A stretch of 19,599 bases of DNA from an uncultured archaeon (GCA_964473825.1 CAYYQL010000046.1:1-19599), one strand, 5' to 3'; shown: positions 97 through 18,968, counted from the first letter of the stretch. Numbers and translations are program-made. The notes: generated from the letters alone by a model not told the origin.

Positions 97-1806
97 ATGC
101 CAGACCCAAAGAATCCCCTCATAGTTCAATCGGATAAGTCAGTACTACTTGAAGTAGACAATGAACGATACGAAGATGCCAGAGACTCGCTGGCACGATT
201 CGCAGAACTGGTCAAGAGTCCGGAGTATGTCCATACCTATCGCATAACCCCCCTCAGTCTCTGGAATGCCGCTGCAGTGGGTATGACTCCGAATGAGGTC
301 ATCGCGGCTCTCGAAGAGTATGCCAAGTATCCAATCCCGGGCAACATTAGTCGAGAGATTCTAGACTACATGAGCAGATACGGCCAGTTGAGCCTATACA
401 AAGAGGATGAGGATCTGTTGTTGCTTTGCGAGAACGAGGATTTGGCAGAGCAGATCTGGCAAAGCAAGAACGTACGGGAATACCTGATTGAGAGAGTTGA
501 TTCCACTACAATCTTGGTCGACCCAACGAAACGAGGATTCGTCAAACAGGCACTAATCGAGATAGGTCATCCAGTTGAGGATGTTGCGGGGTATGTAGAG
601 GGAGACCCACTATATTTTGAACTCAGGGAGAAGACGCTGAGTGGAAACAACTTCGACTTGAGAGACTATCAAGAAGATGCAGTTGCATCGTTTCACGCAG
701 GGGGAACGACCATGGGCGGCTCTGGCGTCGTGGTTCTGCCATGTGGCGCAGGAAAGACCATGGTGGGCATCGGAGCAATGCATGAACTTCAAACCTCTAC
801 GGTGATCCTCTGTCCCAACACAGTTGCTGTTCGCCAATGGATAGAAGAACTCCTCGATAAGACCACCCTGACGGAGGATCAGATAGGGGAATACACTGGA
901 GATGTCAAAAGGATTAGACCTGTGACAGTGGCAACCTACCAAATAATGACCTATCGAAAGTCAAGAGAATCCGAATTTGAGCACTTCGAAGTCTTCGAGG
1001 CTAAGAATTGGGGACTGATCATATATGACGAGGTCCATCTTTTGCCCGCACCAGTCTTTCGAGTCACAGCGACAATTCAGGCAACAAGAAGATTGGGGCT
1101 CACTGCAACCCTTGTCAGAGAAGATGAACGGGAAGAAGAAGTGTTCAGTCTCATCGGTCCGAAGAGATTCGACATGCCATGGAAGCTCCTCGAGGATAAG
1201 GGCTGGATTGCAACCGCGGTCTGCTACGAGGTGCGTATCGAGCTACCAGAATCACTCCGACGGAAGTATGCTCTCGCCGAGGACCGACACAAGTACAGAA
1301 TCGCAGCCGAGAATCCAGACAAGATTGCCATAATCAAGGAGATTGTTCAGTACCATACCGGGGATAACATACTCGTCATCGGGATGTATCTAAGGCAGCT
1401 CAGACTCATTTCTGAGGCGCTTGAGGCGCCACTGATAACAGGGAAGACAAGCAATGATGCTCGTCAGACCCTTTACAATGCCTTCCGCGACGGAAAGGTC
1501 AAAGTCTTAGTGGTCTCCAAAGTCGCAAATTTCGCCCTAGATCTTCCTGATGCCAACGTTGCGATACAGGTCTCAGGAACCTTTGGCTCGAGACAAGAGG
1601 AGGCTCAACGACTCGGACGGATTCTTCGCCCAAAAAGGGATGGCAGCTTTGCACGATTCTACTCGGTAATCACCAAAGACACAAGAGACATGGACTTTGC
1701 TGCAAAGAGACAGCTCTTCCTCACAGAACAGGGCTATCAGTATGTCATAGCCTCTGGAGATGAGAGAATCTGGGAAAGGGATCCCAACACCTTCTTCAGA
1801 CACTAA
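97..1806 (+). CDS. xpb: XPB/Rad25/Ssl2-family SF2 DNA helicase/translocase with N-terminal XPB (Helicase_C_3) domain
   Basis: Q motif LRDYQ, Walker A LPCGAGKT, Walker B DEVH, motif III plus XPB RED motif (LGLTATLVRED), motif VI GSRQEEAQRLGRILR. N-terminus PLIVQSDKSVLLEVD...HTYRITPLSLWNA is typical of bacterial/eukaryote-type XPB. GAGGA lies just upstream of the ATG. Confidence 0.96.
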   Translation: MPDPKNPLIVQSDKSVLLEVDNERYEDARDSLARFAELVKSPEYVHTYRITPLSLWNAAAVGMTPNEVIAALEEYAKYPIPGNISREILDYMSRYGQLSLYKEDEDLLLLCENEDLAEQIWQSKNVREYLIERVDSTTILVDPTKRGFVKQALIEIGHPVEDVAGYVEGDPLYFELREKTLSGNNFDLRDYQEDAVASFHAGGTTMGGSGVVVLPCGAGKTMVGIGAMHELQTSTVILCPNTVAVRQWIEELLDKTTLTEDQIGEYTGDVKRIRPVTVATYQIMTYRKSRESEFEHFEVFEAKNWGLIIYDEVHLLPAPVFRVTATIQATRRLGLTATLVREDEREEEVFSLIGPKRFDMPWKLLEDKGWIATAVCYEVRIELPESLRRKYALAEDRHKYRIAAENPDKIAIIKEIVQYHTGDNILVIGMYLRQLRLISEALEAPLITGKTSNDARQTLYNAFRDGKVKVLVVSKVANFALDLPDANVAIQVSGTFGSRQEEAQRLGRILRPKRDGSFARFYSVITKDTRDMDFAAKRQLFLTEQGYQYVIASGDERIWERDPNTFFRH

Positions 1807-2627
1807 TCAGGCGAGGGAGACTCGTACTTGGTGATCGACCGTGCTATTTCTTTCATATCATCAAGAGTCATCCGTCGTATTCCCGTGGGACCAACTCCGA
1901 AGGTGACCCATGCAGTATTATGAGGGGCTCCTCGCACTTTGGTGACTCTGAACTGCTTGATGAGTATCCCTGCTTTCTGAAAGGCGGGTTCATGTCTTGT
2001 ATCTAATATGGCATCACTAGAATATGTGATTGTGTCATCATAAGCAGAGAACTGCTGCAGTCCCATGTGATAGATGGCCCAGAGCGGGATTCGTTGCTCC
2101 TTGCAGAAGGTTGCACGCCATGCCTTCATAGTATTGATGGCCTTGAAAGGATGCGACTGGATGAAGAACTCCGTGATCGAGTCAACAAAAATACCACCGA
2201 GACGTGCGGGATCAAGCTTGTCGATTAGAGTGCGTATTGCATCAGTTATCTGTTCGGAGTCACTAGGGTTTCTTACTGTAAGGGTATGCTCATACTTGGT
2301 GGTCTTTCCCAGAATCTGGGATGAGAAACAGTCAACCAGTTCAATCATGCCTTTGTCAAGCATAGTGCTGTAGTCCCAACCTCGAGAACAGAGGCTTTGA
2401 AGAACGGAAAGGGGGGTGTCCTCAAAACAGACGTAGATTACTGGCCGTCCCGAATGCATCATGGACTTTGCCATCTCATTCAGTAAGACTGACTTACCGC
2501 CACCGCCGGGTCCACGAATAACTCCAAAGTTGTTCCGCGGGAATCCATCTGGAATCTCATCGTCCAAGGTCTTCATGCCCGTGAAATACGATCCAGTCCC
2601 TTTTTCGAGCAGTTCTCTGAAACTCAT
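1803..2627 (-). CDS. KaiC/RAD55-family RecA-superfamily ATPase (single domain)
   Basis: TGMKTLD..IPDGFP N-terminus, Walker A GPGGGGKS, YVCFED, Walker B IFVDSI, SDAIL, C-terminal RVTKVRG..H. Probable start is ATG 2627, preceded by AAGGTGG (ORF track starts at GTG 2636). Confidence 0.9.
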   Translation of the reverse strand: MSFRELLEKGTGSYFTGMKTLDDEIPDGFPRNNFGVIRGPGGGGKSVLLNEMAKSMMHSGRPVIYVCFEDTPLSVLQSLCSRGWDYSTMLDKGMIELVDCFSSQILGKTTKYEHTLTVRNPSDSEQITDAIRTLIDKLDPARLGGIFVDSITEFFIQSHPFKAINTMKAWRATFCKEQRIPLWAIYHMGLQQFSAYDDTITYSSDAILDTRHEPAFQKAGILIKQFRVTKVRGAPHNTAWVTFGVGPTGIRRMTLDDMKEIARSITKYESPSPD

Positions 2628-2708
2628 GGTGTCCACCTTAGGACAGGATATACCTTGTCAACGGGCATATTTACAGATTGCTCCAACGAATCACAGTCAG
2701 TTTCTCCC

Positions 2709-3677
2709 TCACGGTACAAGAGTCTCAAAGTCCCGTATCTTAGAGCGGAGATAGACCTCCAAGTCTTTCACTGCATGGGTGTCAGCTAGACTCTCCTCAA
2801 TTGCTCCTGATTGGGCGTGTACAATCCTTCTAATCGTCCATGATATCACTGAGAGAAGAGCAAGTGGGAAGAGCTCTCGTATCCTTCTCTCTTTGCCGTT
2901 GGACAGCACTGAAGGAATTCGGTCCATCAGATTGTGAAGGGGGTTTTGTACGAGGAGATATGCGATGTCAAACAAGGAGTTGCCTATGCAGGTTTCTTCG
3001 AAGTCAAGCAAGACTGCTTTGGACTCGGTGAAGACTACATTCGCTTCTTGAAAGTCGCCGTGCATGACATCACAAGGCCAATCATCTTGCAAGAGCCCTC
3101 TCACATCTAGAGAATCTGTCATTCTTTGAAGTCTTCTGCCCTCGTTGACTATGGAATTTGAAGAACTCGTATAACGGTTTAAGGTATCAGTGAGCCTGTT
3201 GAGAAGATACGTGGCGTAGGCCTTTGATGACTCGAATTCATGGAAACCGCCCATTGGGTTCTGAGAGAAAGTCATCATGGCAGCCTTCATCATAGAGAGA
3301 TGACTCGATTTCATCCTCGCTAGCTGTGGTACTACTTCGCCCTCCACAAACCTGAGCACCAAAAACGGCGTCTTCAATTTGGAGGCAAGTCGTCCGAAGG
3401 CGATTGGTTCCGGGCATAGTCCAAGTCTGGAGAAGTGGGCATATACCTTGAACTGAAACTCATAGGGGTTGTGATCATGGGGCTCTCGTAACCCGGGTAG
3501 TTTCACCACATATCTCTTTGAGTCGGACTCTCCAAGAAGATTGACATTTGTCCAGCCTCCGATGGAATGTCTGTTGAAATGAATGTCACTGAGGCAGCCG
3601 ACCGCCGTCGCGATCTGGTCCTCGATCTCACCGAGAGATAGACCATGAACAGAGAGGAGTTCCTTGCTCATATTCAT
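2709..3677 (-). CDS. Aminoglycoside phosphotransferase / choline kinase-like (APH-family) small-molecule kinase
   Basis: Gly loop GGWTN, YVVKLP catalytic Lys, HGDFQEANV motif, LLDFE metal-binding motif, DIAY. Start shortened to ATG 3677 (or 3671) so it does not overlap the divergent gene. Substrate unknown. Confidence 0.8.
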   Translation of the reverse strand: MNMSKELLSVHGLSLGEIEDQIATAVGCLSDIHFNRHSIGGWTNVNLLGESDSKRYVVKLPGLREPHDHNPYEFQFKVYAHFSRLGLCPEPIAFGRLASKLKTPFLVLRFVEGEVVPQLARMKSSHLSMMKAAMMTFSQNPMGGFHEFESSKAYATYLLNRLTDTLNRYTSSSNSIVNEGRRLQRMTDSLDVRGLLQDDWPCDVMHGDFQEANVVFTESKAVLLDFEETCIGNSLFDIAYLLVQNPLHNLMDRIPSVLSNGKERRIRELFPLALLSVISWTIRRIVHAQSGAIEESLADTHAVKDLEVYLRSKIRDFETLVP

Positions 3678-3732
3678 GTCATGTGCATCCGGCTTCATTA
3701 AGCTAATTAATCCTTGTAGATTAGCCGGGCTT
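3678..3732. promoter_or_regulatory. Compact divergent promoter region
   Basis: AT-rich core CATTAAGCTAATTAAT (3696-3711) offers TATA-like boxes about 20-26 nt from the ATGs on both strands, consistent with leaderless transcripts. Confidence 0.45.
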
Positions 3733-4020
3733 ATGATGGGACGTGAGATAATCCTCATACTGGCGCACCTCTTCAGGACCATTGGTTCATCCATTGAACT
3801 GGAAGAGGCTGTTGAGTACCTCTCGTTCAGGTGGCGGTATGGTTATCCCAGCGATATCAGACGGATGCTAACGGCTGCCGAGATGAAGGGCATGCTGGAT
3901 AGAAAAGGCGAGATGATTGAAGCAAACTTCCTCTTTGATACTCAAGATCTGTCACCAAATCAAGCCATTGCGATGGAGAACTCTGTTCGTCTCACCGGAG
4001 ATTATGAACCGATGAGCTAG
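3733..4020 (+). CDS. Small archaeal hypothetical protein, DUF2240-like (probable winged helix)
   Basis: Pattern LFR..G...ELEEAVEYLSFRWRY..P....RML..A...GML resembles archaeal DUF2240 N-termini as I recall them. Start ATG 3733 or 3736. Confidence 0.55.
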   Translation: MMGREIILILAHLFRTIGSSIELEEAVEYLSFRWRYGYPSDIRRMLTAAEMKGMLDRKGEMIEANFLFDTQDLSPNQAIAMENSVRLTGDYEPMS

Positions 4021-5150
4021 GCGGATTCTTCGGTGATGGCGGCTATGGAAACAAGCAATGCCTCCAGTTGGATGAATGGGTTTCGTGCTTGTACCATTCG
4101 ATGGTCGATTTCTGCAACCCGATCTACGAGTGTGGATGCCAGTTTCTTGGAGAAGGGACGAGCAACGATGTCTCGATTTATTCCCAAGATTATCTCATCA
4201 GGTGAGAACCCGTCAAATGTCAGCATGTATCTAAGCTTCTTACGCGCCCTGAGAAAATCACCGTTGATAGAAGTCGAAACCAACTCACGAACTCCTCGAT
4301 CTAGTGCTGTCTCATAAACCTCGTAAACACTGTCTTCGGAGACCACACCCGAGCCAGCCTGAGCCATCTGAAGAAGACTTGTTGCTCTTCTCAGATTGCC
4401 ATTGGATTCTCGAGCTATTGCAGCGATTCCTTTATCGTCAATAGTCACATCTTCTTTTTGTGCAATTCTGGTTACAAGATCTCGAGCGACAGTTTCTGAA
4501 ACCGCAGGAAAGCGAATGATCACGGTTCTTGACAGAATGGCCGGGCTCCAACCTGCAAGACTCGGGCTTATGAGGATGAACCGACATGCATCGCTGTAGA
4601 TCTCCATTGTCCGGCGCAGTGCTTGTTGCATGCTGTAGCTCAGTGCATCTGCCTCATCCAGTACGAGAATCTTGACTCTCTCGTCCACAACAGTCATAGT
4701 AGATGCAAAGATGTGGATTGCTTCCTGAAGCATCTGTCTTCGGTTCGGGTTTCTACTTGTGCCTCTTCTCTTGAGTGTGTCTTTGGCCTCCCTGTAGACA
4801 AACGACATATACTCATCGAAATCCGTCCTCTGACTACGATCCAGTTTAGCAAGTTTCTGGATGCTCCTCTTTGCTTTGGACACTGGGTAGTTGATGAGGT
4901 CTCTAACGTTCAGGAACATGTAATTGGAAGCAAAATCATCTTTCAGATAGGAGCGTGCAAAGAGCTCTGCAGCACTAGTCTTGCCAGTTCCGAATGGGCC
5001 CATGAAGATCATATGGGGGCACACCTGAGTTTCAGCGAACTCCCGTAGTCTGTCGATTGCTTTATCTTGGCCTATAAAATCGGTCCATTTCTCCGGACGA
5101 TACTTCACGCACCATAATGGCGGTTCCAGAATTTCCACCCGAGCCCTCAA
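4017..5150 (-). CDS. rfcS: Replication factor C small subunit homolog (divergent paralog with insertion)
   Basis: LWCVKYRP (RFC box II), PHMIFMGPFGTGKT Walker A, ILVLDEAD Walker B, QQALRRTME..S..CRFIL, AILSRT (SRC variant), GNLRRA sensor 2, C-terminal IQLEALL collar. Confidence 0.92.
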   Translation of the reverse strand: MRARVEILEPPLWCVKYRPEKWTDFIGQDKAIDRLREFAETQVCPHMIFMGPFGTGKTSAAELFARSYLKDDFASNYMFLNVRDLINYPVSKAKRSIQKLAKLDRSQRTDFDEYMSFVYREAKDTLKRRGTSRNPNRRQMLQEAIHIFASTMTVVDERVKILVLDEADALSYSMQQALRRTMEIYSDACRFILISPSLAGWSPAILSRTVIIRFPAVSETVARDLVTRIAQKEDVTIDDKGIAAIARESNGNLRRATSLLQMAQAGSGVVSEDSVYEVYETALDRGVRELVSTSINGDFLRARKKLRYMLTFDGFSPDEIILGINRDIVARPFSKKLASTLVDRVAEIDHRMVQARNPFIQLEALLVSIAAITEESA

Positions 5151-5297
5151 GATGTCCCATCAAGATAAGGTTGACTCTCGTATAGCTGTCCTTGACGTGA
5201 ATAGTTAAGACGCAAACACCCTAAACCACAACTATCAAAAGCCAGAAAACAGAGGCTCCTTGTTTACACGACTCGCTCTTAGGAGATATGTAGATAC

Positions 5298-7013
5298 ATG
5301 GCAAAAGAAAGCCTGAAGAATGAACTTGAACACATGCTTCGTGAAGACCTGATGGTCGCCTGCCAATATTGGGGCATCGAGCTAAGCGGCACCCGGTCAG
5401 GTACTCAATTGACTGAACTTCTTGCCAAGAAGATGAGCGACGAGGAGACCAGAAAGAGAGTCTTTGCCACCTTCACTCCCAGCGAACTAGACCTGCTTGG
5501 AATGCTCAGTCTCAATGGGGGTGCCATGAGCTATGATAGACTCAAGCCTTACAGAAAAATCTACAGCTACGGCCAGCTTAACCAAACTGAACGGGACCTG
5601 AGAAAGAAAGGCATCATAATCAGGAGAGTCATGTCCAGGCTCACCGAATATGGCCGGGAAGTAGCGGAGTTCAAGATAATAGACTATTTTTTGCCATATC
5701 TAGAGGCGCATTTCTCGAAGAAGCCTGATACTGGCAGATACAATCCAGAAGACGCCGATACGATTGTCGACGAACGAGACAGTCTTCTGGTGGACATCCT
5801 GCTCTTAGTATCGTATCTTGCCAAGAATGAAGTTACAATGACCAGCTCTTGGGAGTTCCCCAAACGAGACATGGAGGACATAATCAAACCCATGTCCGAG
5901 TCCACCGAGGAGAGATTTGATTTAGTTCAGAAGATTGCCCGAAAAGCTGGAGCATACGCTATCATCGAAGAAGACAGAGTTGTACCAGCAAAAGTGAGGG
6001 CGCTGTTCTCTGGCAAGCAAGACAATGCCTCAAGAAGGATTCTCTTGGCCTCACTCGGACGCACAAGAGCCATTTGGGCAACACCAGATCAACCGACGGA
6101 GTATACTTTGAATCTGATCATTTGCAGGCTCAGAGATAGCTCTACAGAACAGTGGATATCCATAAGTGAACTGCGTCAGTGGATAAGAAGCGAGCTCTTT
6201 GTTGATAAGCAGCCACTCAAATGGATACAGGTAGACGAAGAAAGAGTTACTCTTGCATTGGAAACACCAGTTCTCCTTGGGTTAGTCCAAGCAGCTTACC
6301 ATGGAGGTGACCTTGCCGCAATTCGACTCACAAAAGTTGGAAGTAGTGTTCTCAGAGGACACACCCTTGAGCTAACGGAGGGCCATGAAACATTCATCGT
6401 TCAGCCGAACTTTGAACTCACGGTCTTCACCTCAGAGATGAACTACGCCAAGCTCTACGAACTCATGCTGTTCACTGAACAAGTCAAGACGGATGTGGTG
6501 AGTACATTCAAGATCACAGAGCGGTCGATTTTCCACTCGATAGAGATAGGCATGCGTGAGAAGGAGATAGTCGGTTTTCTTGAAACAGAGAGCACAAAGC
6601 CGGTCCCAAACAACGTCATTCGGTCCATCCGGGACTGGACATCTCAAAGCACCTTCGCCACTGTAGATGACGTAACGCTCTTTGAAACAGAAAATGAAGC
6701 TGACTTAGACCATCTACTCCTACTTGAAGAATTTAATAAGTATGTAGTCCGGCGTGTGGGGCCGCTGGCTGCGGTCATCGTGGGGGACATTGATGAGTTT
6801 ACAGAAGAACTCAAAGAACACAAGTGTCACGTAAGACGCGCTGAGACTAAGGATGCTGCGAGCGAATCAGATATTCCAGACACAGGGATGGCAGAGCAGA
6901 TTCTACTCTACGAAGAAGAGATCGAAGATGTTCCAAAAGAGTGCGAAGGATGTCCGGCATTGAACTCCTGTAACAGGGTTGTCAGACGAAAGGCAGAAGG
7001 CCGAAAGAGATAG
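5298..7013 (+). CDS. XPB-associated protein with Helicase_C_3 domain (p52/Tfb2- or Rv0862c-like); no NTPase motifs
   Basis: Segment FIVQPNFEL...LFTEQVKTDVVSTFKITERS...GM...EIVGFLE...PVPNNV..SIRDW (about 6393-6647) aligns by eye with the N-terminus of XPB in this window. Helical/winged-helix-like N-terminal region. AGGAGA RBS at 5281. Confidence 0.8.
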   Translation: MAKESLKNELEHMLREDLMVACQYWGIELSGTRSGTQLTELLAKKMSDEETRKRVFATFTPSELDLLGMLSLNGGAMSYDRLKPYRKIYSYGQLNQTERDLRKKGIIIRRVMSRLTEYGREVAEFKIIDYFLPYLEAHFSKKPDTGRYNPEDADTIVDERDSLLVDILLLVSYLAKNEVTMTSSWEFPKRDMEDIIKPMSESTEERFDLVQKIARKAGAYAIIEEDRVVPAKVRALFSGKQDNASRRILLASLGRTRAIWATPDQPTEYTLNLIICRLRDSSTEQWISISELRQWIRSELFVDKQPLKWIQVDEERVTLALETPVLLGLVQAAYHGGDLAAIRLTKVGSSVLRGHTLELTEGHETFIVQPNFELTVFTSEMNYAKLYELMLFTEQVKTDVVSTFKITERSIFHSIEIGMREKEIVGFLETESTKPVPNNVIRSIRDWTSQSTFATVDDVTLFETENEADLDHLLLLEEFNKYVVRRVGPLAAVIVGDIDEFTEELKEHKCHVRRAETKDAASESDIPDTGMAEQILLYEEEIEDVPKECEGCPALNSCNRVVRRKAEGRKR

Positions 7014-7025
7014 GTTGGCACGACG

Positions 7026-8060
7026 ATGCAAGTAGTTCCGCAACGACTCGTAGGTGAGTTCTTCGGAGTAGGTAGCTTGGGAGCGAAAGACTACACTGCA
7101 CCGCTTGACTATATCACGGACTTGGCGCTCCCTTACTGGTACCAACTTCCGAAGTATAAGGAGGAAGACATGGTCCGCCAGTTCGCATATCTCATTGATG
7201 GATTTGAGGAAGAGGAAGACTTCACTCTCGATGTGGACATGTATACGTACCGCGAGATTTTGCAGGACGACAGCCCATTGGTGCCAGATAATGAGCACGC
7301 TCATGGACTCTATCTGCTTCAATCAAGAGGTCCTTTTGTGGATTTCAAAACGCAACAGACAGCCCCCGCCACCATGGCATTCAGCATAAGAGGGACGGAT
7401 GGTTGCCAGCTACTCTCCAAGAGCATGATTAGTTTCTTCGCATCTCTGATGGCCAGAGTAGCGGCGGGGCAAGTCAGATTTCTGGACAATTTCTGCGAGA
7501 ACATAATACTCTGTCAAGACGACCCAGCACTGGGGCATGCTGTCAACATGATTCAGAGCAACAAAATAGGAGATCTGGAGGTCTGGGAACTCGCAAGAGC
7601 TACAGAGGGGGTATATCCCGAGGAAGCTATTCCAGCGTATCACTACTGTGATGATTGGAGGCGGCTTCAATTTGGAGACGATTACTTCCTCTGGGATTCG
7701 AAGGCCAAGATAGTTCACATTGATGTACTGAGATATCCACCGCATCTTGAATCTGAGCAATCGGAGGCAATCAACCATTTCATTGAAAGAGGTGGCGGAT
7801 TCGCTCTCGGCGTCATACCGAACAATGACGAGGGCTTCTTCGACTCGGTGATAGAGCTCTTGCGTAAGGGCCTCAAAAGCACACTGCAGGCATTCACAGA
7901 TAGCGGAGTCAGCATTGAGCTGATTGCAGAAAACTCGATGGTCTCGACTCAGTGTGGTCTCTCTGGTCTTTCAAATGCATTGACCGAGAGAATACATGCT
8001 GAGAGTAGAAAATTCAAAGGCGTCTTCAACGAATTGAAGAATAGCTTCTTGACCAGATAA
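7026..8060 (+). CDS. Cobalamin-independent methionine synthase catalytic-domain-like (core MetE / URO-D superfamily) protein
   Basis: GVGSL N-terminus, PYWYQLP....EDM..Q, CQDDPAL (cf. QIDEP), YHYC (HxC zinc ligands), ALGVIP, STQCGL (cf. SPSCGL, third ligand). Starts 12 nt after the previous stop. Confidence 0.7.
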   Translation: MQVVPQRLVGEFFGVGSLGAKDYTAPLDYITDLALPYWYQLPKYKEEDMVRQFAYLIDGFEEEEDFTLDVDMYTYREILQDDSPLVPDNEHAHGLYLLQSRGPFVDFKTQQTAPATMAFSIRGTDGCQLLSKSMISFFASLMARVAAGQVRFLDNFCENIILCQDDPALGHAVNMIQSNKIGDLEVWELARATEGVYPEEAIPAYHYCDDWRRLQFGDDYFLWDSKAKIVHIDVLRYPPHLESEQSEAINHFIERGGGFALGVIPNNDEGFFDSVIELLRKGLKSTLQAFTDSGVSIELIAENSMVSTQCGLSGLSNALTERIHAESRKFKGVFNELKNSFLTR

Positions 8061-8955: not shown

Positions 8956-9608
8956 CTAGTCATGTCGTTTCTTGAAGGTGAAGAGTACAACTACAGCAAT
9001 TAGAGAAACGAGTACAGCACTGAAAGACAAGAGGATCAGACCATCGAAACCTCCACCGTTGGTTGTCTGAGTAGCGCTTGTGACATAGCGCCGAGGAAAT
9101 CGGTCAATGCTGTTCGAGAGGCCAGCGATCTGATACACGGCCCCCCGGCATAGTCGCTCCAGGCATTGCCTATTACACCGTTGTCCCAAGCGTTATTCTC
9201 AGAATCGTCGTATCCGTTGGACAGATTGTTCCATCCGAGCCGGTTGTTGAATACAAGATTGGAATCACTCCCGAAACCAAGACGAATGCCGTAACGCTCA
9301 TTGAACACAATCTCGTTCCCCGATAGCGTGCTGTTGTCTGTGGCAGATAGGTACACTCCATCGAGATTTCCACGAATAGTGTTATCGTGGACTGAGCATC
9401 GAGAGCATTGGAAGAGGTAGATCCCGACCCGCAAGGTTCCGTGGATTGAGTTGTTCAGGAAACTGCTCATGAGCCTGTTAGCGGCAGGACCTTCGAAGCT
9501 GAGGTGTGGCTTGCAGAGTGCAATAGGGCCTGCAAAACAGAGGTGCATGATAGCGATTACAAGTAGGAAACGACTGCCAGTGTGCACTGCATCATACCAC
9601 AAAGTCAA
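8956..9608 (-). pseudogene. Frameshifted NosD/CASH right-handed beta-helix surface protein with C-terminal membrane anchor
   Basis: ORF 9036-9608 has GIYL/GVYL/GIRL-N repeats and GNAWSDY. ORF 8956-9189 continues in another frame with VYQIAG....DRFP, a Thr/Gly linker, a TM helix and KKRH. The frames join at the C6 run 9141-9146. Confidence 0.75.
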
Positions 9609-9748
9609 TCCTTATGGGATGCGTATATAGAACAGCAATCTAGCAACCTTTCTGCAATCTGAGAGGGTTACAAAAAGGTATGGCTTTCTGTCTGGAGCCA
9701 GAGCTCAGTCGTTGCTGATTGCTATACTAAAGCCTAGATACAAGCAGC

Positions 9749-10057
9749 CTATTCAGTTGAATCTTCAGCATAGGTGGGCTTTCGATCAGCAACCTCCTCA
9801 TCCTCTTCACGAAGCTTATGTTGGAAGGGGCGTCCCTGACCATATATGTCCGGGTCTTCATCGGTGGTCTTGGACATGATCACAAGAAAGCCACCAAACT
9901 GTATGGCCACAGATGCAATGCTGACTATGAAGACATCAAGAAGGTACTCATGAGTGAAAAGTTGGAGAGCCCAAATCAAGGGATAGGCGATGACCTGAAT
10001 GATGATTCCGCTGAGAAGCAAGATTACCCATTTGTTTGTCCAGTTCGAAGATGCCAT
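9749..10057 (-). CDS. Small two-TM membrane protein with acidic C-terminal tail
   Basis: Two hydrophobic helices followed by a D/E-rich tail. Fills an otherwise empty gap, co-oriented with its neighbours. Confidence 0.7.
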   Translation of the reverse strand: MASSNWTNKWVILLLSGIIIQVIAYPLIWALQLFTHEYLLDVFIVSIASVAIQFGGFLVIMSKTTDEDPDIYGQGRPFQHKLREEDEEVADRKPTYAEDSTE

Positions 10058-10128
10058 TATTGCTCAACTCATGTTTCAAGGTACTGTTTGCCTTCCCGGC
10101 AGGACTACCAATTAAAGATGACTGTGAC

Positions 10129-11088
10129 TTACTGACCTGATTCGTAGATTTCCTTGACCTTTTGGACGACAACCTCGGCCAGTCTTCGGAAATCACGTTG
10201 TGAGATTCTTGGCACACTACTTGTTCGCTCAGGGATATCGAATCTGCCGACAATTACTGCCACATCACCGTCCATGCTGTACTCGGTCAAGACAGGATAT
10301 CTCGTTCCTATGCGATAGATCTCTTCGCCTTCATTCACTCTACCGCTTTTGTACAAAGTTCCAACAACATACGGATAAACAAATCCGGATTCTGATACCT
10401 GTACCTGAAGCGCCACGGTCTCCGGCAGGCCCTCTACGTATATTCTCGGTTCAGCCTCTATGATTGTACGAATGCCAGCTCTAGTCCCCAGAGTTATGCT
10501 ATACCCGGCTCTAACTCCAGGAACAGTCGAGAGTTCTGCTAGGTATTTGTCAAGAGATCCTGTTTCAGGCTCTTTGAAGAACTGCTGAGAATCTATGCCC
10601 ACGCTACCGTAGCCGGCCCAGAAACCCAGAGCAGATGGAATCGTGTAGAGAATCGCTATGAATATGACAGTGTATATCGGTGGAGGGACAGAGAAATCAA
10701 AGGGTATTAGAAACGCGATGATGAGTGCAGGAATCATGAACATTCCACAGACACAGCTGCAGCAGGCATTATCCTTCTTTGTCAGATGCCCATAGGCCTC
10801 ATCAAACTTCTCTTTCATCGTCTGATATTCCGTCAGCTCGACCCAAGTCTTCTGCTTCTTCCACTTCCCAGGTACGTAGTCAATTGCTCTCTTGGAGGCA
10901 GCACCAAAGCCAAGAGAAGCGAGACCAAGAGCAAAGGGAACGAGAGCAAACAGGATGATAAAATTATCAAAGCTCATGTTCTGTATGAGAGAGAATACGG
11001 CCACTGCGATAGCAGCAACCACAAAGAAGGCAAAGAGTTTGTTCACAACCTTCTGCCGGCCATAGTCAATAATCTCTGATTCGCTCAT
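10129..11088 (-). CDS. Uncharacterised 4-TM membrane protein with soluble C-terminal domain (paralog C)
   Basis: 2 TM, charged loop (AIDYVPGKW...FDEAYGHL), 2 TM, soluble domain. Likely start MSESEIID at 11088, overlapping the upstream gene end by 23 nt. Confidence 0.8.
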   Translation of the reverse strand: MSESEIIDYGRQKVVNKLFAFFVVAAIAVAVFSLIQNMSFDNFIILFALVPFALGLASLGFGAASKRAIDYVPGKWKKQKTWVELTEYQTMKEKFDEAYGHLTKKDNACCSCVCGMFMIPALIIAFLIPFDFSVPPPIYTVIFIAILYTIPSALGFWAGYGSVGIDSQQFFKEPETGSLDKYLAELSTVPGVRAGYSITLGTRAGIRTIIEAEPRIYVEGLPETVALQVQVSESGFVYPYVVGTLYKSGRVNEGEEIYRIGTRYPVLTEYSMDGDVAVIVGRFDIPERTSSVPRISQRDFRRLAEVVVQKVKEIYESGQ

Positions 11089-12082
11089 CGTCTTTCCCAC
11101 GCGTCTGTACGGTTCTATCTGTGTCTTCCGAAATAAGAGCATCGTTTGGATGTGATGGGTCTGGTCTAGCAAGACATCGCTTTACATCCTGCATCACTTC
11201 ATAGATCAGTGAATCGACCTCACGGGTCGCGGCATAGAACTCCAGTGCATCCAATACGAACCTCTCAACATGCTGCTTCAGCTCGGAGCTTTTAGCGTCA
11301 TGGTGGAGAACTTTAGAGTGCAAGTCCGAACCCAACTCTACCTCCCGGGTCAGAGCTGTTGTGGGAGACCCTAGCTTCGGTTCGATTATGATTCTTCCTG
11401 CGGACTCGATAGATTCGACGCGTCCGATAGCACCGACGTTTCGGATTGTATAGAGGCCCTGCCACTCCCCTATCGTTAGTCTGACGCCCACCCATGATAT
11501 TCCACAGGCATTAGCGAGAATCTTCACATATGGTTCTATGTCTTTTATGGAAGCGGTCTGAAATTCGCTGCTCGCGGGGGAAGGAGAAGCACGGAAAACA
11601 AACAGCGCAAATGACACACCAAAACCAATGAGAAACGCTGCGTATACATAGGGCGAGTACACGAGACCTAGAACCGAAACTCCGGCCAGAGCGGGAGGTG
11701 CTAGTACTGATGCTGCACCGAAGAATATGAACGTGAACAGCAGGTTCGTGTCAAGATCGACTAGTACTGACGAATACGCCTGGCGGTACTGCTCAACTAG
11801 CTTGCAAAAATCGGAAAAAGATAACTCACGCTCTCGATAGTCCCAATCTGTGCTGCCGATAGCGATCCTGCTCCTGAAGAACCAAGACAGCAATGCAGAG
11901 GCTAAGGCCAAAGTGACAACTAAAATCAGGGAGAAGCCATACCAGTCATGCGGATTCTGCTGATACACTAGGAGAAGGTACTGCGCACGGTCACCAGCAT
12001 GGAATCCCCAGAGTAACACAACTACGAGAACCAGAGCCTGATAGATGAGCGGCCGCCCCAAGTTCAGAGGTTCATCGGTCAA
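11066..12082 (-). CDS. Uncharacterised 4-TM membrane protein with soluble C-terminal domain (paralog B)
   Basis: Same architecture as its neighbours. Likely start TTG 12082 (or 12085) behind GGTGGTGG; ORF track start is 12133. Confidence 0.78.
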   Translation of the reverse strand: MTDEPLNLGRPLIYQALVLVVVLLWGFHAGDRAQYLLLVYQQNPHDWYGFSLILVVTLALASALLSWFFRSRIAIGSTDWDYRERELSFSDFCKLVEQYRQAYSSVLVDLDTNLLFTFIFFGAASVLAPPALAGVSVLGLVYSPYVYAAFLIGFGVSFALFVFRASPSPASSEFQTASIKDIEPYVKILANACGISWVGVRLTIGEWQGLYTIRNVGAIGRVESIESAGRIIIEPKLGSPTTALTREVELGSDLHSKVLHHDAKSSELKQHVERFVLDALEFYAATREVDSLIYEVMQDVKRCLARPDPSHPNDALISEDTDRTVQTRGKDDERIRDY

Positions 12083-12104
12083 CAACCACCACCATCCGCC
12101 GGAA

Positions 12105-13124
12105 TCAGTTAGAGGGATAGTCCGCGGGTACATCGAGTCTTCTCAGAATGTCTCGGCATTCATCTGATGCGATGTCACGGTTAATCGACTCGATAACCAC
12201 AAGCGCCACGGCATTAGCAGTCAACTCAGATACATCCTTCACTCCTAGATTTTCCTTATTCGTGGGCACGGGAAGCTTGACGTAGTATCCCTCATCCTCT
12301 CCTCCAATATGTTTCCGGAAGAGGCGATCCCTGCTTGTCCACCACCAATCAACTGCCGGTGTGTCATCAGTACTCAACAGGCGACAGAAGATGCTGGATA
12401 CAGCTCCTAGTTCCTCAGTCAAAGACTCGATATAGGCGTGCTCTTCAATGCCGCGTATCCGAACCAATACGCGGGGCACCCTATATACTACCAGATCCTT
12501 ATGCTGAGCGGTATCTAGCACAATCCGCACTTGAGAAACTCCAGGCGTGTCCCCTTGGGTTCTTGCCAGATCGAGATTCTCCCGTATCGGGGGAATTTTG
12601 AAGTCTTCGGAGGCATCGTTGGATGTTGCTCGAAACCCGCCATAAGATGACACAGCAAATATCGTCACCAACAGCAGGGCAGTCACCTCATCCACATAGG
12701 CGACAAGCCATGTCATATAGAAGAATGAGTAGAGTGGTACAGCGAGGGTTGCCAATATGAGGAGTACCGGTACAAAGAAGTGCCAGAATTGCGAATCGGA
12801 TATTAGGCGTGAGTAACTCCTGCTGTAGCCCTTCAACAGGCTGTCCAGTTCCTCAATGCCATACTGCTTGGGATCGAAATCCCATCGACGACCTGTGTAG
12901 TCAACGGCATCCTTCTTTCCCTTCCAACCAATCGCAAAGCCGATAGAGCTGGTTGCAAGCGGCACCAAGAAGAACCATGATATCACTACGAAAAGGTCTA
13001 GGTCAGACTGCGGCATGAACAGAGGGGTCAGGAAATACCCTCCTACTCCAGCTAGAATGAGGCAAAATATCTCCAAACCCAAGTGTCTATTCAACGACTT
13101 GTGCTGAACTATCCCTTCATTCAT
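12105..13124 (-). CDS. Uncharacterised 4-TM membrane protein with soluble C-terminal domain (paralog A)
   Basis: 2 TM, loop AVDYTGRRW...YSRSYSRL, 2 TM, FRATSNDASEDF, PGVSQVRIVL. AGGAAGGA upstream of the ATG. Confidence 0.82.
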   Translation of the reverse strand: MNEGIVQHKSLNRHLGLEIFCLILAGVGGYFLTPLFMPQSDLDLFVVISWFFLVPLATSSIGFAIGWKGKKDAVDYTGRRWDFDPKQYGIEELDSLLKGYSRSYSRLISDSQFWHFFVPVLLILATLAVPLYSFFYMTWLVAYVDEVTALLLVTIFAVSSYGGFRATSNDASEDFKIPPIRENLDLARTQGDTPGVSQVRIVLDTAQHKDLVVYRVPRVLVRIRGIEEHAYIESLTEELGAVSSIFCRLLSTDDTPAVDWWWTSRDRLFRKHIGGEDEGYYVKLPVPTNKENLGVKDVSELTANAVALVVIESINRDIASDECRDILRRLDVPADYPSN

Positions 13125-13225
13125 CGTGGCCCATCCTTCCTGCTGTGCCGCTCGCCTACTCCTTTAAGCGTTGCTAGAAGGCCACAATGTTTATTAACCA
13201 TTGTTAATGCGCATTTTTGATGACA

Positions 13226-13708
13226 ATGTTGAAAGTTGGAGATAAAGCACCAAACTTCGAAACCACAACCGAGTCTGGTGAAGAATTCAGACTAAGCGAC
13301 TACAGAGGAGAGAAGATAGTTCTCTATTGGTATGTTAAAGACAACACGACTGGATGTCAGGCGGAGTCCTGTTCCTTGAGAGATAGCTATGACGTCTTCC
13401 AATCAAATGATATTCGAGTCTTCGGAATCGGCCCTGGTTCAGAGAAGACACACCAGAGTTTCAAGTCCAAGAACAAACTCCCATTTCCGCTTCTGATAGA
13501 TGAGAATAATGAGATTGCAGAACTCTATGACGTGTGGGGAAAGAAGAAGATGTATGGCAAAGAGTACATGGGCATCATTCGCACAACGTTCCTCATCGAT
13601 GAAAATGGGAAAATTGAAGGCGTATTTGGCGGGCCCGATGGTATCGAGAAGGTCAAGACCAAGGAGCATGCCGATCAAGTAATAGGCTTCTGGGAACTCA
13701 AGCTATAG
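13226..13708 (+). CDS. bcp: BCP/PrxQ peroxiredoxin, copy 1
   Basis: LKVGDKAPNF, WYVKDNTTGCQAESC (CxxxxC), LPFPLL.D, YDVWGKKKMYGKEYMGIIRTTFLIDENG. Start ATG 13226 or 13220. Confidence 0.93.
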   Translation: MLKVGDKAPNFETTTESGEEFRLSDYRGEKIVLYWYVKDNTTGCQAESCSLRDSYDVFQSNDIRVFGIGPGSEKTHQSFKSKNKLPFPLLIDENNEIAELYDVWGKKKMYGKEYMGIIRTTFLIDENGKIEGVFGGPDGIEKVKTKEHADQVIGFWELKL

Positions 13709-13753
13709 AGAATGCAATGCTGAAAATCTATCATCATGAGGAGAAAGTGAGAA

Positions 13754-14227
13754 ATGCTTCAAGTAGGAGATAAGGCACCTGACTTCGAGACAGTGGACGA
13801 GTCAGGCAATACGTTCAGACTGAAAGACCATAGAGGGAGCAAGTTCGTGCTCTATTTCTACCCCAAAGATGAAACACCTGGATGCACTGCAGAAGCTTGT
13901 TCAATCCGAGACAACTACCAAACGTTCCAAGAGGCCGGAATACCTGTTTTTGGAATATCTGGTAAAGATGCAAACTCACACCAGAAGTTCAAAGAGAAAC
14001 ACAACCTTCCGTTTCCTCTACTAGTGGATGAGAATTTCGAAATCGCAAAGATGTATGATGCGTACAGTAGACTGAGTGTCATCGGTTTCGGTGTGAAACG
14101 TATAACGTATCTCATCGATGAGAAGGGCAAAATCGAGGGAATCTTCGGCGGTCCAGCAGGCGAAGAAGGCGTCATATCAAGTCAACACGCAGAGCAGATA
14201 GCAGGCTTTTGGGGACTCAAACTCTAG
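13754..14227 (+). CDS. bcp: BCP/PrxQ peroxiredoxin, copy 2
   Basis: Canonical YFYPKDETPGCTAEAC, SHQKFKEKHNLPFPLL, RITYLIDEKG. Confidence 0.95.
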   Translation: MLQVGDKAPDFETVDESGNTFRLKDHRGSKFVLYFYPKDETPGCTAEACSIRDNYQTFQEAGIPVFGISGKDANSHQKFKEKHNLPFPLLVDENFEIAKMYDAYSRLSVIGFGVKRITYLIDEKGKIEGIFGGPAGEEGVISSQHAEQIAGFWGLKL

Positions 14228-14425
14228 CACTTCTACCAGAGAATGTCAGGTGAGTTGTGACAGGCCATGAAGCCCACTGACCCCGTTTGAGGGTGAAGAA
14301 ACAAAGATGAATGTTAAGTCACGATAGTCTTTTCATATGTTAAAATTCGTCATTAGGAAATATTAATACTGACTGCTAGTTCGAAGACAGAAGTCATCTT
14401 ACAAAGATAGCCGTGAGTGGAGTAC

Positions 14426-14986
14426 ATGACTGAAGAAGCAAAAGAAAGGAAAGAACCTGCATCGCGTCGAAGGCCGGCTATTGTAGATCCTGAGTTCAAA
14501 CATGAGGTGTTGAGAGAACCGGGTGGCGAAAGCCTGAGACTGTGTTTCCAGTGCGGTACGTGTACTGCAGGATGCATCATTGCAGAGCACAGTGATGAAT
14601 ACCAAGGGCCTCGAAAAATCATACGAATGGCTCAGCTCGGCCTAGTTGAAGACCTTCTCTCCAGCCCCGAGCTATGGTTCTGTAGTACGTGTTATTCCTG
14701 TACCGAGGTGTGCCCGCAAGGGGTCACTCCAAAAGACATCATCAGAGTGCTTCAGAATCTGGCTGTGAAGAAAGGTTACGTGCCAAAGGGATATCAGAAA
14801 ATTGCTGAGAATATCGTGAAAACGGGATGGGCTCAAAAGGTCAGCAGCTTCAAGATGAAGAAAAGAGAGAAACAGGGCCTCCCACCGATTCCAGACACTG
14901 ATCAGGTCGAGGTTGAGAAGCTCATGAAGGTCACTGGGCTCAATGCAATTGCTGAAGCTGAAGAAGCGGAGGAGGAAGAAAAATGA
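14426..14986 (+). CDS. hdrC: Heterodisulfide reductase subunit C
   Basis: CFQCGTCTAGC and LWFCSTCYSCTEVCP [4Fe-4S] motifs, PRKIIR..QLG, R..QGLPP. ATGA overlap with hdrB. Start ATG 14426 or GTG 14417. Confidence 0.93.
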   Translation: MTEEAKERKEPASRRRPAIVDPEFKHEVLREPGGESLRLCFQCGTCTAGCIIAEHSDEYQGPRKIIRMAQLGLVEDLLSSPELWFCSTCYSCTEVCPQGVTPKDIIRVLQNLAVKKGYVPKGYQKIAENIVKTGWAQKVSSFKMKKREKQGLPPIPDTDQVEVEKLMKVTGLNAIAEAEEAEEEEK

Positions 14987-15933: not shown

Positions 15934-15945
15934 GAGGCAGAGACC

Positions 15946-16467: not shown

Positions 16468-16475
16468 GCTCTGTC
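16456..16475. terminator. Perfect 20-bp palindrome between convergent operons (candidate bidirectional terminator or processing hairpin)
   Basis: GACAGAGCCT|AGGCTCTGTC is self-complementary and centred on the DUF2096 stop codon, 9 nt from the opposing gene's stop. The terminator role is inferred. Confidence 0.5.
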
Positions 16476-16484
16476 ATACTTGTT

Positions 16485-16976: not shown

Positions 16977-16989
16977 TCTGTTACCTCCA

Positions 16990-18897: not shown

Positions 18898-18956
18898 GTT
18901 ATCCACTCTCAGCCAGTTCGAAATGCATGTTTTCATATCGGGGAAGAATGAACCCG

Positions 18957-18968
18957 TGATAAAAGTAT
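18957..18968 (-). promoter_or_regulatory. Putative TATA box for the aor operon
   Basis: Minus strand reads ATACTTTTATCA about 60 nt upstream of the GTG start. Confidence 0.35.

What the first reader, a model, noticed from the sequence alone, without database searches (positions are those of the whole stretch)
97..7013. TFIIH-like XPB + p52/Tfb2-like pair in an archaeal DNA-transaction cluster
Seen: XPB (97-1806) has an N-terminal extension IVQSD..FAELVK..TYRIT.LS..GM..E..LE..PIP.N..I.D. The non-ATPase protein at 5298-7013 contains a clear copy of the same domain (IVQPN..FTEQVK..TFKIT.RS..GM..E..LE..PVP.N..I.D), followed by a similar short alpha/beta segment. No Bax1 nuclease follows xpb. Established: the characterised archaeal XPBs (Archaeoglobus, Sulfolobus, Thermoplasma) lack this domain and many partner Bax1. 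In eukaryotic TFIIH the XPB N-terminal domain pairs with the homologous 'clutch' domain of p52/Tfb2 to stimulate XPB, and an analogous gene pair exists in bacteria (e.g. mycobacterial Rv0861c/Rv0862c). Inference: this archaeon encodes a minimal XPB-p52 DNA-opening module, 3.5 kb apart and interleaved with RFC and a RAD55-like ATPase. If the host is Asgard, this bears on the origin of the TFIIH core; horizontal acquisition from bacteria is the alternative.
Basis: partly seen in the sequence, partly recalled or inferred. Interest (0 to 1): 0.8.

Follow-up and report, generated by a model that had tools for sequence, protein, structure and literature searches.

The report
Thorarchaeal XPB with p52-like partner
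This Asgard (Thorarchaeota) genome encodes the DNA-opening motor XPB and, 3.5 kb away, a protein predicted to fold like the whole of p52, XPB's holder and activator in eukaryotic TFIIH; reviews say prokaryotes lack such a partner, but the same pair is common in bacteria and shows no special tie to eukaryotes.

Summary
XPB (97-1806) and the 571-aa protein at 5298-7013 both carry Pfam PF13625, and they align at 30% identity (E 4e-10). The second protein is more than a shared domain. Its AlphaFold model (pLDDT 81) matches only TFIIH p52/Tfb2 chains at the top of the PDB, colinear from residue 55 to 511: winged-helix array, clutch domain and C-terminal domain.

The host is Thorarchaeota. In 201 Asgard genomes the pair was found in 43 of 44 genomes of that order and in none of 157 others. 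Synteny is fixed: XPB, an APH-like kinase, a small winged-helix gene, an order-specific RFC paralogue, then the p52-like gene.

The ancestral-TFIIH reading is not supported.
- Thor XPB is 56-63% identical to bacterial XPBs, which often have a full-length homologue of the partner directly downstream.
- Bacterial and Thor proteins score equally against eukaryotic XPB and p52.
- No p8, p44, p34, p62 or Bax1 was found.

Predicted binding of the XPB N-terminus to the clutch got weak support only.

The scan reached the same verdict on at least five other Thorarchaeota genomes. I found no paper describing a prokaryotic p52 homologue.

The parts
97..1806 (+). Long-form XPB DNA translocase/helicase, 569 aa. 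It has an N-terminal PF13625 domain (nt 118-498), RecA1 and RecA2. Motifs GAGKT, DEVH, RED and QRLGRILR are intact.
   Evidence: Pfam PF13625, ResIII and ERCC3_RAD25_C. NCBIfam NF045503 repair_heli_XPB, 864.6 bits over positions 1-547 of 548. Colinear with human XPB (8ebt_A), residues 5-552. Motifs read from the translation.
1803..2636 (-). KaiC/RadA-family P-loop ATPase, 277 aa. A variable member of the interval.
   Evidence: Pfam PF06745, E 8e-20. Present in about 16 of 59 Thor loci.
2709..3794 (-). APH-family (aminoglycoside/choline kinase-like) phosphotransferase. A conserved neighbour. The true start is probably an internal Met, because the long ORF overlaps the small gene at 3733-4020.
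   Evidence: Pfam PF01636, E 3e-18. Present in nearly all Thor loci and in the 36%-identity lineage L008.
3733..4020 (+). Small conserved gene, 95 aa. DUF2240-like winged-helix protein.
   Evidence: Pfam DUF2240, E 0.0034 here and 8e-11 for the syntenic gene in L008. Found in 50 of 59 Thor loci at the same place. AlphaFold model pLDDT 88.9 with an H-E-H-H-E-E winged helix. Only generic winged-helix matches in the PDB; not p8-like.
4017..5150 (-). Divergent RFC small-subunit paralogue, 377 aa. Transcribed divergently from the p52-like gene. Specific to this order.
   Evidence: Pfam Rep_fac_C, lid and AAA. NCBIfam RFC small subunit, 251 bits, below the cut-off of 303. The canonical RFC small subunit lies elsewhere, on C2. 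Orthologues (48-59% identity, at least 390 bits; 33% and 214 bits in f2) occur only in families f1/f2 and always next to XPB; other Asgard genomes give at most 145 bits.
5298..7013 (+). p52/Tfb2-like partner of XPB, 571 aa. Winged-helix array (about residues 55-355, nt 5460-6362), clutch domain (residues 360-452, nt 6375-6653), p52-CTD-like domain (residues 455-510, nt 6660-6827), disordered acidic linker, and a C-terminal helix with Cx2Cx5C (nt 6942-6971).
   Evidence: PF13625 at residues 367-485. A family profile hits the human p52 clutch (E 3.6e-4) and the XPB N-terminal domain (E 7e-6). AlphaFold pLDDT 81.1, pTM 0.70. The Foldseek top 18 hits are all p52/Tfb2, best E 3.7e-11. VIA-align: 9pd3_D Z 14.2 with 378 residues aligned, 55-511 against 44-461; XPB N-terminal domain Z 15.8, rmsd 1.5 over 92 residues.
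7026..8060 (+). 344-aa protein 13 nt downstream of the p52-like gene. Probably a MetE-C-terminal-like enzyme and probably not part of the DNA module.
   Evidence: No Pfam match. Nearest ESM Atlas clusters are named cobalamin-independent methionine synthase MetE C-terminal domain, score 0.94, which is a lead only. Present after the p52-like gene in most but not all Thor loci.

Best explanation
The gene at 5298-7013 encodes a full-length prokaryotic homologue of the TFIIH subunit p52/Tfb2, and it is the dedicated partner of the long-form XPB at 97-1806. The inferred mechanism follows TFIIH: the partner's clutch domain pairs with the homologous N-terminal domain of XPB in a pseudo-symmetric heterodimer. 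This holds the motor and tunes its DNA-dependent ATPase and double-strand translocase, so that it can open DNA. The partner's winged-helix array would bind DNA or another factor in place of p34/p62, which are missing here. The biological role is most likely DNA repair or another DNA-opening step; this is inferred and not shown. The pair belongs to an old two-gene module that is widespread in bacteria, where the genes are adjacent. It entered, or left, the Thorarchaeota lineage once. There it became fixed and was split by an APH-like kinase, a small winged-helix gene and an order-specific RFC paralogue. It shows that the XPB-p52 pairing is not a eukaryotic invention. It does not show that eukaryotes inherited it from Asgard archaea.
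For: Shown:
- The two proteins share a domain.
- The partner's predicted fold matches p52/Tfb2 first and colinearly over about 380-500 positions, including the N-terminal half (6tru_B, prob 0.98) and the C-terminal domain.
- A sequence profile reaches the p52/Tfb2 clutch in the PDB, and Pfam Tfb2 gives its only, weak, match in the genome at this gene.
- Co-occurrence: two PF13625 matches, usually on one contig, in 43 of 44 genomes of the order and none in 157 other Asgard genomes.
- Gene order is the same in 59 Thor loci, including a lineage where the partner is only 36% identical.
- In bacteria a homologue lies directly downstream of XPB in 7 of 21 loci examined. It is homologous over the full length: hhalign probability 100%, E 1.7e-47, 455 columns.
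- XPB's catalytic motifs are intact.
- Thor XPBs form one side of a branch against 16 bacterial XPBs, support 93/84.

Weak support for binding: complex prediction of XPB 1-185 with partner 355-515 scored 0.55 against a best control of 0.00. That mark was reached by 58 of 80 solved complexes and 2 of 110 mismatched pairs. At 0.60 or under it was reached by only 7 of those 80 and by both mismatches that passed. The runs agree in at least 91% of contacts, and the partner's pLDDT is at least 84. Because the TFIIH XPB-p52 complex is solved, this pass may reflect likeness and not binding.

Against: - No experiment supports binding, ATPase stimulation or a repair role.
- The binding prediction is only weak support and may come from memory of solved TFIIH.
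- The two genes are not co-transcribed here: they lie 3.5 kb apart with opposite-strand genes between them.
- Global TM-scores to p52 are low (0.27-0.43), because the domains are arranged differently. Winged-helix arrays are common folds, so the N-terminal match rests on colinearity and on p52 chains filling the top ranks.
- Sequence similarity to p52 is confined to the clutch domain.
- No p8-like subunit was found.
- About two thirds of the bacterial XPB loci examined have no recognisable partner next to them.
Confidence: 0.75

Rival explanations
1. Proto-TFIIH reading: the pair is a vertically inherited Asgard feature, retained in Thorarchaeota and lost in other Asgard lineages. It would be the direct ancestor of the eukaryotic XPB-p52 core, and bacteria would have received it by transfer from archaea.
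For: The host is an Asgard archaeon. Thor XPB is far more eukaryote-like than any other Asgard XPB-like gene: TIGR00603 rad25 gives about 300 bits against at most 122 bits. XPB is colinear with human XPB from N-terminal domain to RecA2, and the partner is colinear with p52. The trees do not resolve the direction of transfer; Thor and bacteria are separate sides of a branch.
Against: The pair was not found in 157 genomes of 25 other Asgard families, many of them over 90% complete. Thor XPB is 56-63% identical to XPBs of at least seven bacterial phyla. The branch between Thor and bacteria (0.14) is shorter than most bacterial end branches. Bacterial XPBs score the same against yeast and human XPB (287/275 and 267/256 bits) as the Thor XPB does (287/272). 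The bacterial partner profile hits yeast Tfb2 better (E 1.1e-7) than the Thor profile does (E 0.01). No p8, p44, p34 or p62 was found. No eukaryotic sequences could be put in a tree here.
Confidence: 0.1
2. The 571-aa protein works independently of XPB, for example as a winged-helix DNA-binding regulator. On this reading it merely shares a domain with XPB by descent, and the linkage reflects slow genome rearrangement within one order.
For: The genes are not in one operon here and are separated by unrelated-looking genes. Homologues occur without an adjacent XPB in a euryarchaeal bin (L006/L007) and in L003. Binding is not demonstrated, and the prediction gave only weak support.
Against: The two genes are directly adjacent or overlapping in bacteria of several phyla. 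They co-occur in 43 of 44 genomes of the order and both are missing elsewhere in the phylum. The shared domain is exactly the one that mediates XPB-p52 contact in TFIIH.
Confidence: 0.08
3. The module is a mobile anti-phage or anti-plasmid defence system and not a repair factor. XPB would be the motor and the p52-like protein a sensor or adaptor.
For: The distribution across bacteria and archaea is patchy and suggests transfer. In bacterial loci the neighbours include a large SF1 helicase and a WYL domain fused to the partner, and an AddB-like nuclease. XPB's helicase core weakly matches the PADLOC PbeA models.
Against: The partner matches no PADLOC model, and the XPB matches cover only the generic helicase core. 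In Thorarchaeota the pair is a fixed core feature with constant neighbours (42 of 43 genomes of f1), unlike variable defence islands. No nuclease or toxin-type effector is in the conserved cluster.
Confidence: 0.07

Closest known systems
XPB-p52-p8 (Ssl2-Tfb2-Tfb5) translocase sub-module of eukaryotic TFIIH (e.g. PDB 6NMI, 7NVV, 8EBS, 9PD3, 6TRS)
   Same: XPB has the same domain order, with N-terminal domain, RecA1 and RecA2, and is colinear with human XPB. The partner has the p52 order of winged-helix array, clutch and C-terminal domain. The clutch is homologous to the XPB N-terminal domain, as in TFIIH.
   Different: No p8/Tfb5, p44, p34 or p62 was found, so the partner's N-terminal winged helices have no p34/p62 to bind. 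XPB lacks the eukaryotic N- and C-terminal extensions (569 against 782 aa). The partner has an extra acidic linker and a C-terminal Cx2Cx5C helix. Sequence similarity to p52 is limited to the clutch. The genes are chromosomal neighbours of an RFC paralogue.
Bacterial XPB plus 'helicase-associated domain-containing protein' operon
   Same: XPB is 56-63% identical over its full length. The partner is homologous over its full length: hhalign E 1.7e-47, 455 columns. The position of PF13625 is the same.
   Different: In bacteria the two genes abut or overlap. Here they are 3.5 kb apart with three or four genes between them. Bacterial partners vary in length (389-889 aa), and some add WYL or a second clutch-like segment. 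The partner is only about 18-32% identical between lineages. The Cys-rich C-terminal tail is a Thor feature.
Archaeal XPB-Bax1 helicase-nuclease complex (Archaeoglobus, Sulfolobus/Sulfurisphaera; PDB 6P66, 6P4F)
   Same: The SF2 XPB helicase core is shared (159 and 126 bits). The presumed role is in opening DNA for repair.
   Different: Those XPBs lack the PF13625 N-terminal domain and align only from residue 186 onward. Their partner is the nuclease Bax1, which was not found in this genome. Here the partner is a non-enzymatic p52-like protein.

Membership tests
XPB/Rad25/Ssl2 helicase, long form | SF2 core with XPB-specific C-terminal helicase domain and RED motif | tested here: met
   PF16203, E 2e-48; NF045503, 864.6 bits against a cut-off of 610. 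GAGKT, DEVH and RED are present in the translation.
XPB/Rad25/Ssl2 helicase, long form | N-terminal PF13625 domain, the p52-binding domain of eukaryotic XPB | tested here: met
   PF13625 at residues 8-134, E 5e-34. Aligned with human XPB from residue 22.
p52/Tfb2 (GTF2H4) | Clutch domain homologous to the XPB N-terminal domain | tested here: met
   The family profile hits human p52 306-407 (E 3.6e-4) and yeast Tfb2 (E 0.01). Structure: Z 15.8, rmsd 1.5 over 92 residues to the XPB N-terminal domain; included in all p52 alignments.
p52/Tfb2 (GTF2H4) | N-terminal array of winged-helix domains, colinear with p52 | tested here: met
   Foldseek full-length alignments to 18 p52/Tfb2 chains (best E 3.7e-11), and to 6tru_B, the N-terminal half of p52 (prob 0.98). 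VIA-align 55-511 against 44-461, 378 residues, Z 14.2. This rests on a predicted model only; there is no sequence signal in residues 1-360.
p52/Tfb2 (GTF2H4) | C-terminal domain that pairs with p8/Tfb5 | tested here: inconclusive
   Residues 455-510 align with p52 up to residue 458-461, so the fold is there. No p8-like protein was found: Pfam Tfb5 gives only E 0.158, inside XPB, and an HMM of this C-terminal domain finds no free-standing ORF in the genome.
p52/Tfb2 (GTF2H4) | Pfam Tfb2 (PF03849) above the gathering score | tested here: not met
   13.6 bits against a cut-off of 34.5, covering model positions 284-356 only. It is therefore a remote homologue and not a member of the curated family.
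p52/Tfb2 (GTF2H4) | Physical binding to XPB and stimulation of its ATPase | not testable with these tools
   Only a prediction is available, with weak support: 0.55 against a best control of 0.00.
TFIIH core complex | Presence of XPD, p62, p44, p34 and p8 together with XPB and p52 | tested here: not met
   Two XPD-like genes lie elsewhere in the genome. No match was found for Ssl1/p44. Tfb4/p34 and PH_TFIIH/p62 also gave nothing, but those two searches rang in no control genome, so they are weak tests. Tfb5/p8 was not found.
Archaeal XPB-Bax1 system | Bax1 (DUF790) nuclease encoded next to xpb | tested here: not met
   No DUF790 match in the genome (95.7% complete). The search rang in Haloferax, Sulfolobus and Methanosarcina.

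The most novel reading that the evidence does not exclude
In Thorarchaeota the XPB-p52-like pair may have recruited lineage-specific subunits into a larger DNA-opening or loading machine that has no described counterpart. The candidates are the order-specific RFC small-subunit paralogue, the 95-aa winged-helix protein and perhaps the APH-like kinase, all locked in one gene order across the order. Separately, and more broadly, the prokaryotic XPB-p52 module, rather than the classical archaeal XPB-Bax1, may be the source of the TFIIH translocase sub-module.
Probability: 0.2. Interest if true: 0.8.

Novelty: new variant of a known kind. Interest (0 to 1): 0.6.

Why it matters
A 2012 paper states that p52 has not been found in bacteria (PMC3353954). 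A 2026 perspective states that TFIIH subunits other than XPB and XPD are absent from Archaea (PMC13153155). A full-length p52 homologue paired with XPB in bacteria and in one Asgard order would mean that the XPB-p52 holding-and-activating arrangement predates eukaryotes. It would also give a two-protein system, free of the other eight TFIIH subunits, in which to study how p52 controls XPB; mutations at that interface cause human disease. For eukaryote origins the message is cautionary. The most eukaryote-like XPB among Asgard archaea looks like part of a module shared with bacteria and not an Asgard heirloom.

Tried and rejected
- **p8/Tfb5-like small subunit.** Pfam Tfb5 on the whole genome gave only E 0.158, inside XPB. 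An HMM of the partner's C-terminal domain, run against all 40,879 ORFs of at least 40 aa, found only the partner itself and a weak match to XPB 107-143 (E 0.11). The 65-aa ORF between XPB and its partner in bacterial locus L004 has no Pfam match and no BLASTP similarity to that partner.
- **The conserved 95-aa gene at 3733-4020 as a p8 analogue.** Rejected: it is a generic winged helix.
- **The downstream gene 7026-8060 as a Bax1-like nuclease.** Rejected: its Atlas look-alikes are MetE-C-terminal-like enzymes.
- **Defence system.** No PADLOC model matches the partner.
- **Rooting the XPB tree with other Asgard XPB-like genes.** The outgroup branch is too long (2.86) and the base is unresolved, so no direction of transfer can be read.
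- **Single-sequence search of the partner against the PDB.** It found nothing; only the family profile did.
- **Literature.** Searches for Rv0862c, PF13625, 'bacterial XPB', Asgard with TFIIH, and a prokaryotic p52 found no description of this partner.

Full report
**What is there.** The window is contig C46 of a 3.27 Mb, 95.7%-complete genome. Close relatives of its proteins are named Candidatus Thorarchaeota, an Asgard lineage. The ORF at 97-1806 (+) encodes a 569-aa XPB with four Pfam domains: PF13625 at residues 8-134 (E 5e-34), ResIII, ERCC3_RAD25_C and Helicase_C. It matches NCBIfam NF045503 'DNA repair helicase XPB' end to end at 864.6 bits. It has intact GAGKT, DEVH, RED and motif VI.

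The ORF at 5298-7013 (+) encodes a 571-aa protein whose only family match is PF13625, at residues 367-485 (E 9e-12). BLASTP aligns XPB 32-134 with residues 389-487 of this protein at 30% identity, E 4e-10. These are the only two PF13625 matches in the genome.

**The second protein is p52-like over its whole length.**
- A profile of 20 family members (A1) searched against PDB sequences hits the human XPB N-terminal domain (E 7e-6), the human p52 clutch at residues 306-407 (E 3.6e-4) and yeast Tfb2 (E 0.01). All hits fall in residues 364-460.
- An AlphaFold2 model built on that alignment has mean pLDDT 81.1 and pTM 0.70. Only 255-264, an acidic linker (516-545) and the last three residues (569-571) fall below pLDDT 50.
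- Foldseek against the PDB returns p52/Tfb2 chains as its first 18 hits: 8ebs_D E 3.7e-11, 6nmi_D 2e-9, yeast 7zs9_2 2e-9, p52-p8 crystal 6trs 2e-8. The alignments span about 500 columns. The crystal of the N-terminal half of p52 (6tru_B) also matches, at probability 0.98. XPB chains follow, matched only through their N-terminal domain.
- VIA-align gives Z 14.2 with 378 residues aligned, model 55-511 against p52 44-461 (9pd3_D), and Z 14.1, rmsd 8.0 over 269 residues (7nvv_2). The clutch alone superposes on the human XPB N-terminal domain at Z 15.8, rmsd 1.5 over 92 residues.

Global TM-scores are low (0.27-0.43) because the domains sit at different angles. The case for the N-terminal half therefore rests on colinearity and on p52 filling the top ranks. 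Residues 1-360 give no sequence signal, and Pfam Tfb2 reaches only 13.6 bits, at the start of the clutch. I therefore call it a remote, full-length p52 homologue and not a member of the curated Tfb2 family.

**Linkage with XPB.**
- In 201 Asgard genomes, PF13625 was found in 42 of 43 other genomes of the window's family and in the one genome of a second family of the same order. Nearly always there are two matches on one contig, 5-6.5 kb apart. It was found in none of 157 genomes of 25 other families.
- In 59 Thor loci the gene order is constant: XPB(+), sometimes a KaiC-like ATPase(-), an APH-like kinase(-), an RFC paralogue(-), the p52-like gene(+), then usually a 344-aa gene.
- The order also holds in a lineage whose partner is only 36% identical (L008).
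- The genome has a single XPB and no Bax1.

**Predicted binding.** I sent XPB 1-185 with partner 355-515 to complex prediction, and the result was weak support.
- The score was 0.55 against a best control of 0.00.
- That mark was reached by 58 of 80 solved complexes and 2 of 110 mismatched pairs.
- At 0.60 or under it was reached by only 7 of those 80, and by both mismatches that passed.
- The runs agree in at least 91% of contacts, and the partner's pLDDT is at least 84.
- Because the TFIIH XPB-p52 complex is solved, the pass may reflect likeness and not binding.

**Relation to bacteria.**
- A scan of species-representative genomes found Thor XPBs at 73-97% identity. It then found XPBs from Nitrospiraceae, Planctomycetota, Symbiobacteriaceae, Pseudomonadota, Myxococcota, Spirochaetales and Bacillota at 56-63% identity over the full length.
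- In 7 of 21 bacterial loci a PF13625 protein of 389-889 aa starts at or just after the XPB stop codon.
- A profile of these bacterial partners aligns with the Thor family over 455 columns: hhalign probability 100%, E 1.7e-47.

The whole two-gene module is therefore shared between bacteria and Thorarchaeota.

**Relation to eukaryotes.**
- Thor XPB scores 286.6 bits against yeast Ssl2 and 272.4 against human XPB.
- A Symbiobacteriaceae XPB scores 287.2 and 275.2, and a spirochaete XPB 266.6 and 255.8.
- The bacterial partner profile hits yeast Tfb2 at E 1.1e-7, better than the Thor profile does.

Thor proteins thus have no special affinity for the eukaryotic ones. Among Asgard genomes the rad25 model gives about 300 bits in Thor and at most 122 bits elsewhere, so the long form is confined to Thor in this sample.

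**Trees.** In a maximum-likelihood tree of 12 Thor and 16 bacterial XPBs, Thor forms one side of a branch (support 93/84). The internal branch (0.14) is shorter than most bacterial end branches. Rooting with other Asgard XPB-like genes failed to resolve the base because of very long branches.

This fits a single exchange between bacteria and the ancestor of this archaeal order. The breadth in bacteria favours a bacterial donor, but the direction is not shown. I could not obtain eukaryotic sequences for a tree.

**Other TFIIH parts.** No match was found to Ssl1/p44. Tfb4/p34 and PH_TFIIH/p62 also gave nothing, but those two searches rang in no control genome and are weak tests. Pfam Tfb5 gave only E 0.158, inside XPB. 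An HMM of the partner's C-terminal domain found no free-standing copy in the genome. Two XPD-like genes lie elsewhere. This is a two-protein module and not a TFIIH core.

**Neighbours.**
- **RFC-like gene (4017-5150).** It is a second small-subunit paralogue; the canonical one is on C2. Its orthologues were found only in the same order and always in this cluster. Other Asgard genomes give only their canonical RFC, at 145 bits or less.
- **Small gene at 3733-4020.** Between it and the kinase gene lies a conserved 95-aa gene that is easy to miss. It is DUF2240-like, present in 50 of 59 Thor loci, and predicted to be a winged helix.
- **Whether these act with XPB is unknown.** Their fixed order across the order is the only evidence.
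- **Gene at 7026-8060.** It looks MetE-C-terminal-like and is probably unrelated.

**Mechanism.** By analogy with TFIIH (PMC6422496), I infer that the partner's clutch pairs with the XPB N-terminal domain. This would hold and regulate the translocase, while the winged-helix array contacts DNA or another factor. A role in DNA repair is inferred from the family only.

[quoted passage not shown] PMC13153155 (2026) states that TFIIH subunits other than XPB and XPD are absent from Archaea. My searches found no paper describing this partner. Earlier follow-ups in this scan reached the same verdict on at least five other Thorarchaeota genomes and on several bacterial operons. I reached my reading before seeing them, and I tested the same points here.

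Noticed in passing
window 3733-4020 (+): A conserved 95-aa gene between the APH-like and RFC-like genes, hidden inside a longer TTG-started ORF that overlaps the 5' end of the APH ORF. It is DUF2240-like, found in 50 of 59 Thor loci, and predicted to be a winged helix (pLDDT 88.9). One of its weak PDB look-alikes is the Sulfolobus PCNA-binding protein PBP2 (5n35, E 0.057).
   Followed up: partly
window 4017-5150 (-): The RFC small-subunit paralogue is specific to this archaeal order and always sits between XPB and the p52-like gene. The canonical RFC small subunit is on contig C2. In four related genomes (G027, G128, G124, G155) the match to it contains one in-frame TAG.
   Followed up: partly
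window 2709-3794 (-): The APH-like ORF as listed overlaps the small gene at 3733-4020. Its real start is probably one of the internal Met codons (residues 33-42).
   Followed up: no
window 415-525 (XPB residues about 107-143): The segment after the XPB N-terminal domain weakly resembles the partner's p52-CTD-like domain (HMM E 0.11) and, at overlapping residues 126-156, Pfam Tfb5 (E 0.158). XPB and its partner may therefore share a two-domain block and not just one domain.
   Followed up: partly
window 6822-7013: The partner ends in an acidic disordered linker and a helix with Cx2Cx5C, plus an upstream HKCH. The motif is conserved in the Thor family (C558 in at least 90% of A1) but lies outside the region that aligns with the bacterial partners, which ends near residue 512. 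The model has low confidence there.
   Followed up: no
window 7026-8060 (+): A 344-aa protein with no Pfam match. ESM Atlas features place it next to clusters named MetE C-terminal/archaeal domain (score 0.94). Motifs such as HYCDDW and QCGLSG recall the zinc site of that family; this is from my own recollection and was not tested.
   Followed up: partly
L004/L005 4079-8670: A bacterial-looking locus encodes, in order, a 1262-aa SF1 helicase (AAA_11/AAA_12), XPB, a 55-65-aa ORF, and an 889-aa partner with PF13625, a second clutch-like segment and a WYL domain.
   Followed up: partly
L066 7825-13673: In a Nitrospiraceae MAG, XPB is followed by an AddB-like PD-(D/E)XK nuclease-helicase (1081 aa) and another large gene, instead of a p52-like partner.
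   Followed up: no
L006/L007 8001-10049: A 682-aa homologue of the partner in a 'Euryarchaeota archaeon' bin has no XPB within 8 kb. Its neighbours are RACo-like and MJ1341-like genes.
   Followed up: no
window 9036-19599: The rest of the window holds a NosD-like beta-helix fragment (9036-9608), three adjacent unannotated minus-strand genes (10129-13124), two tandem peroxiredoxins (13217-14227), a ferredoxin plus CCG-domain pair (14417-15933), a DUF2096 protein and an aldehyde:ferredoxin oxidoreductase (16990-18936).
   Followed up: no
L051: A contig labelled 'Candidatus Hermodarchaeota' carries an XPB nearly identical to that of a Thorarchaeota MAG (L049) and has the same gene order. The label probably reflects the submitter's naming.
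   Followed up: no
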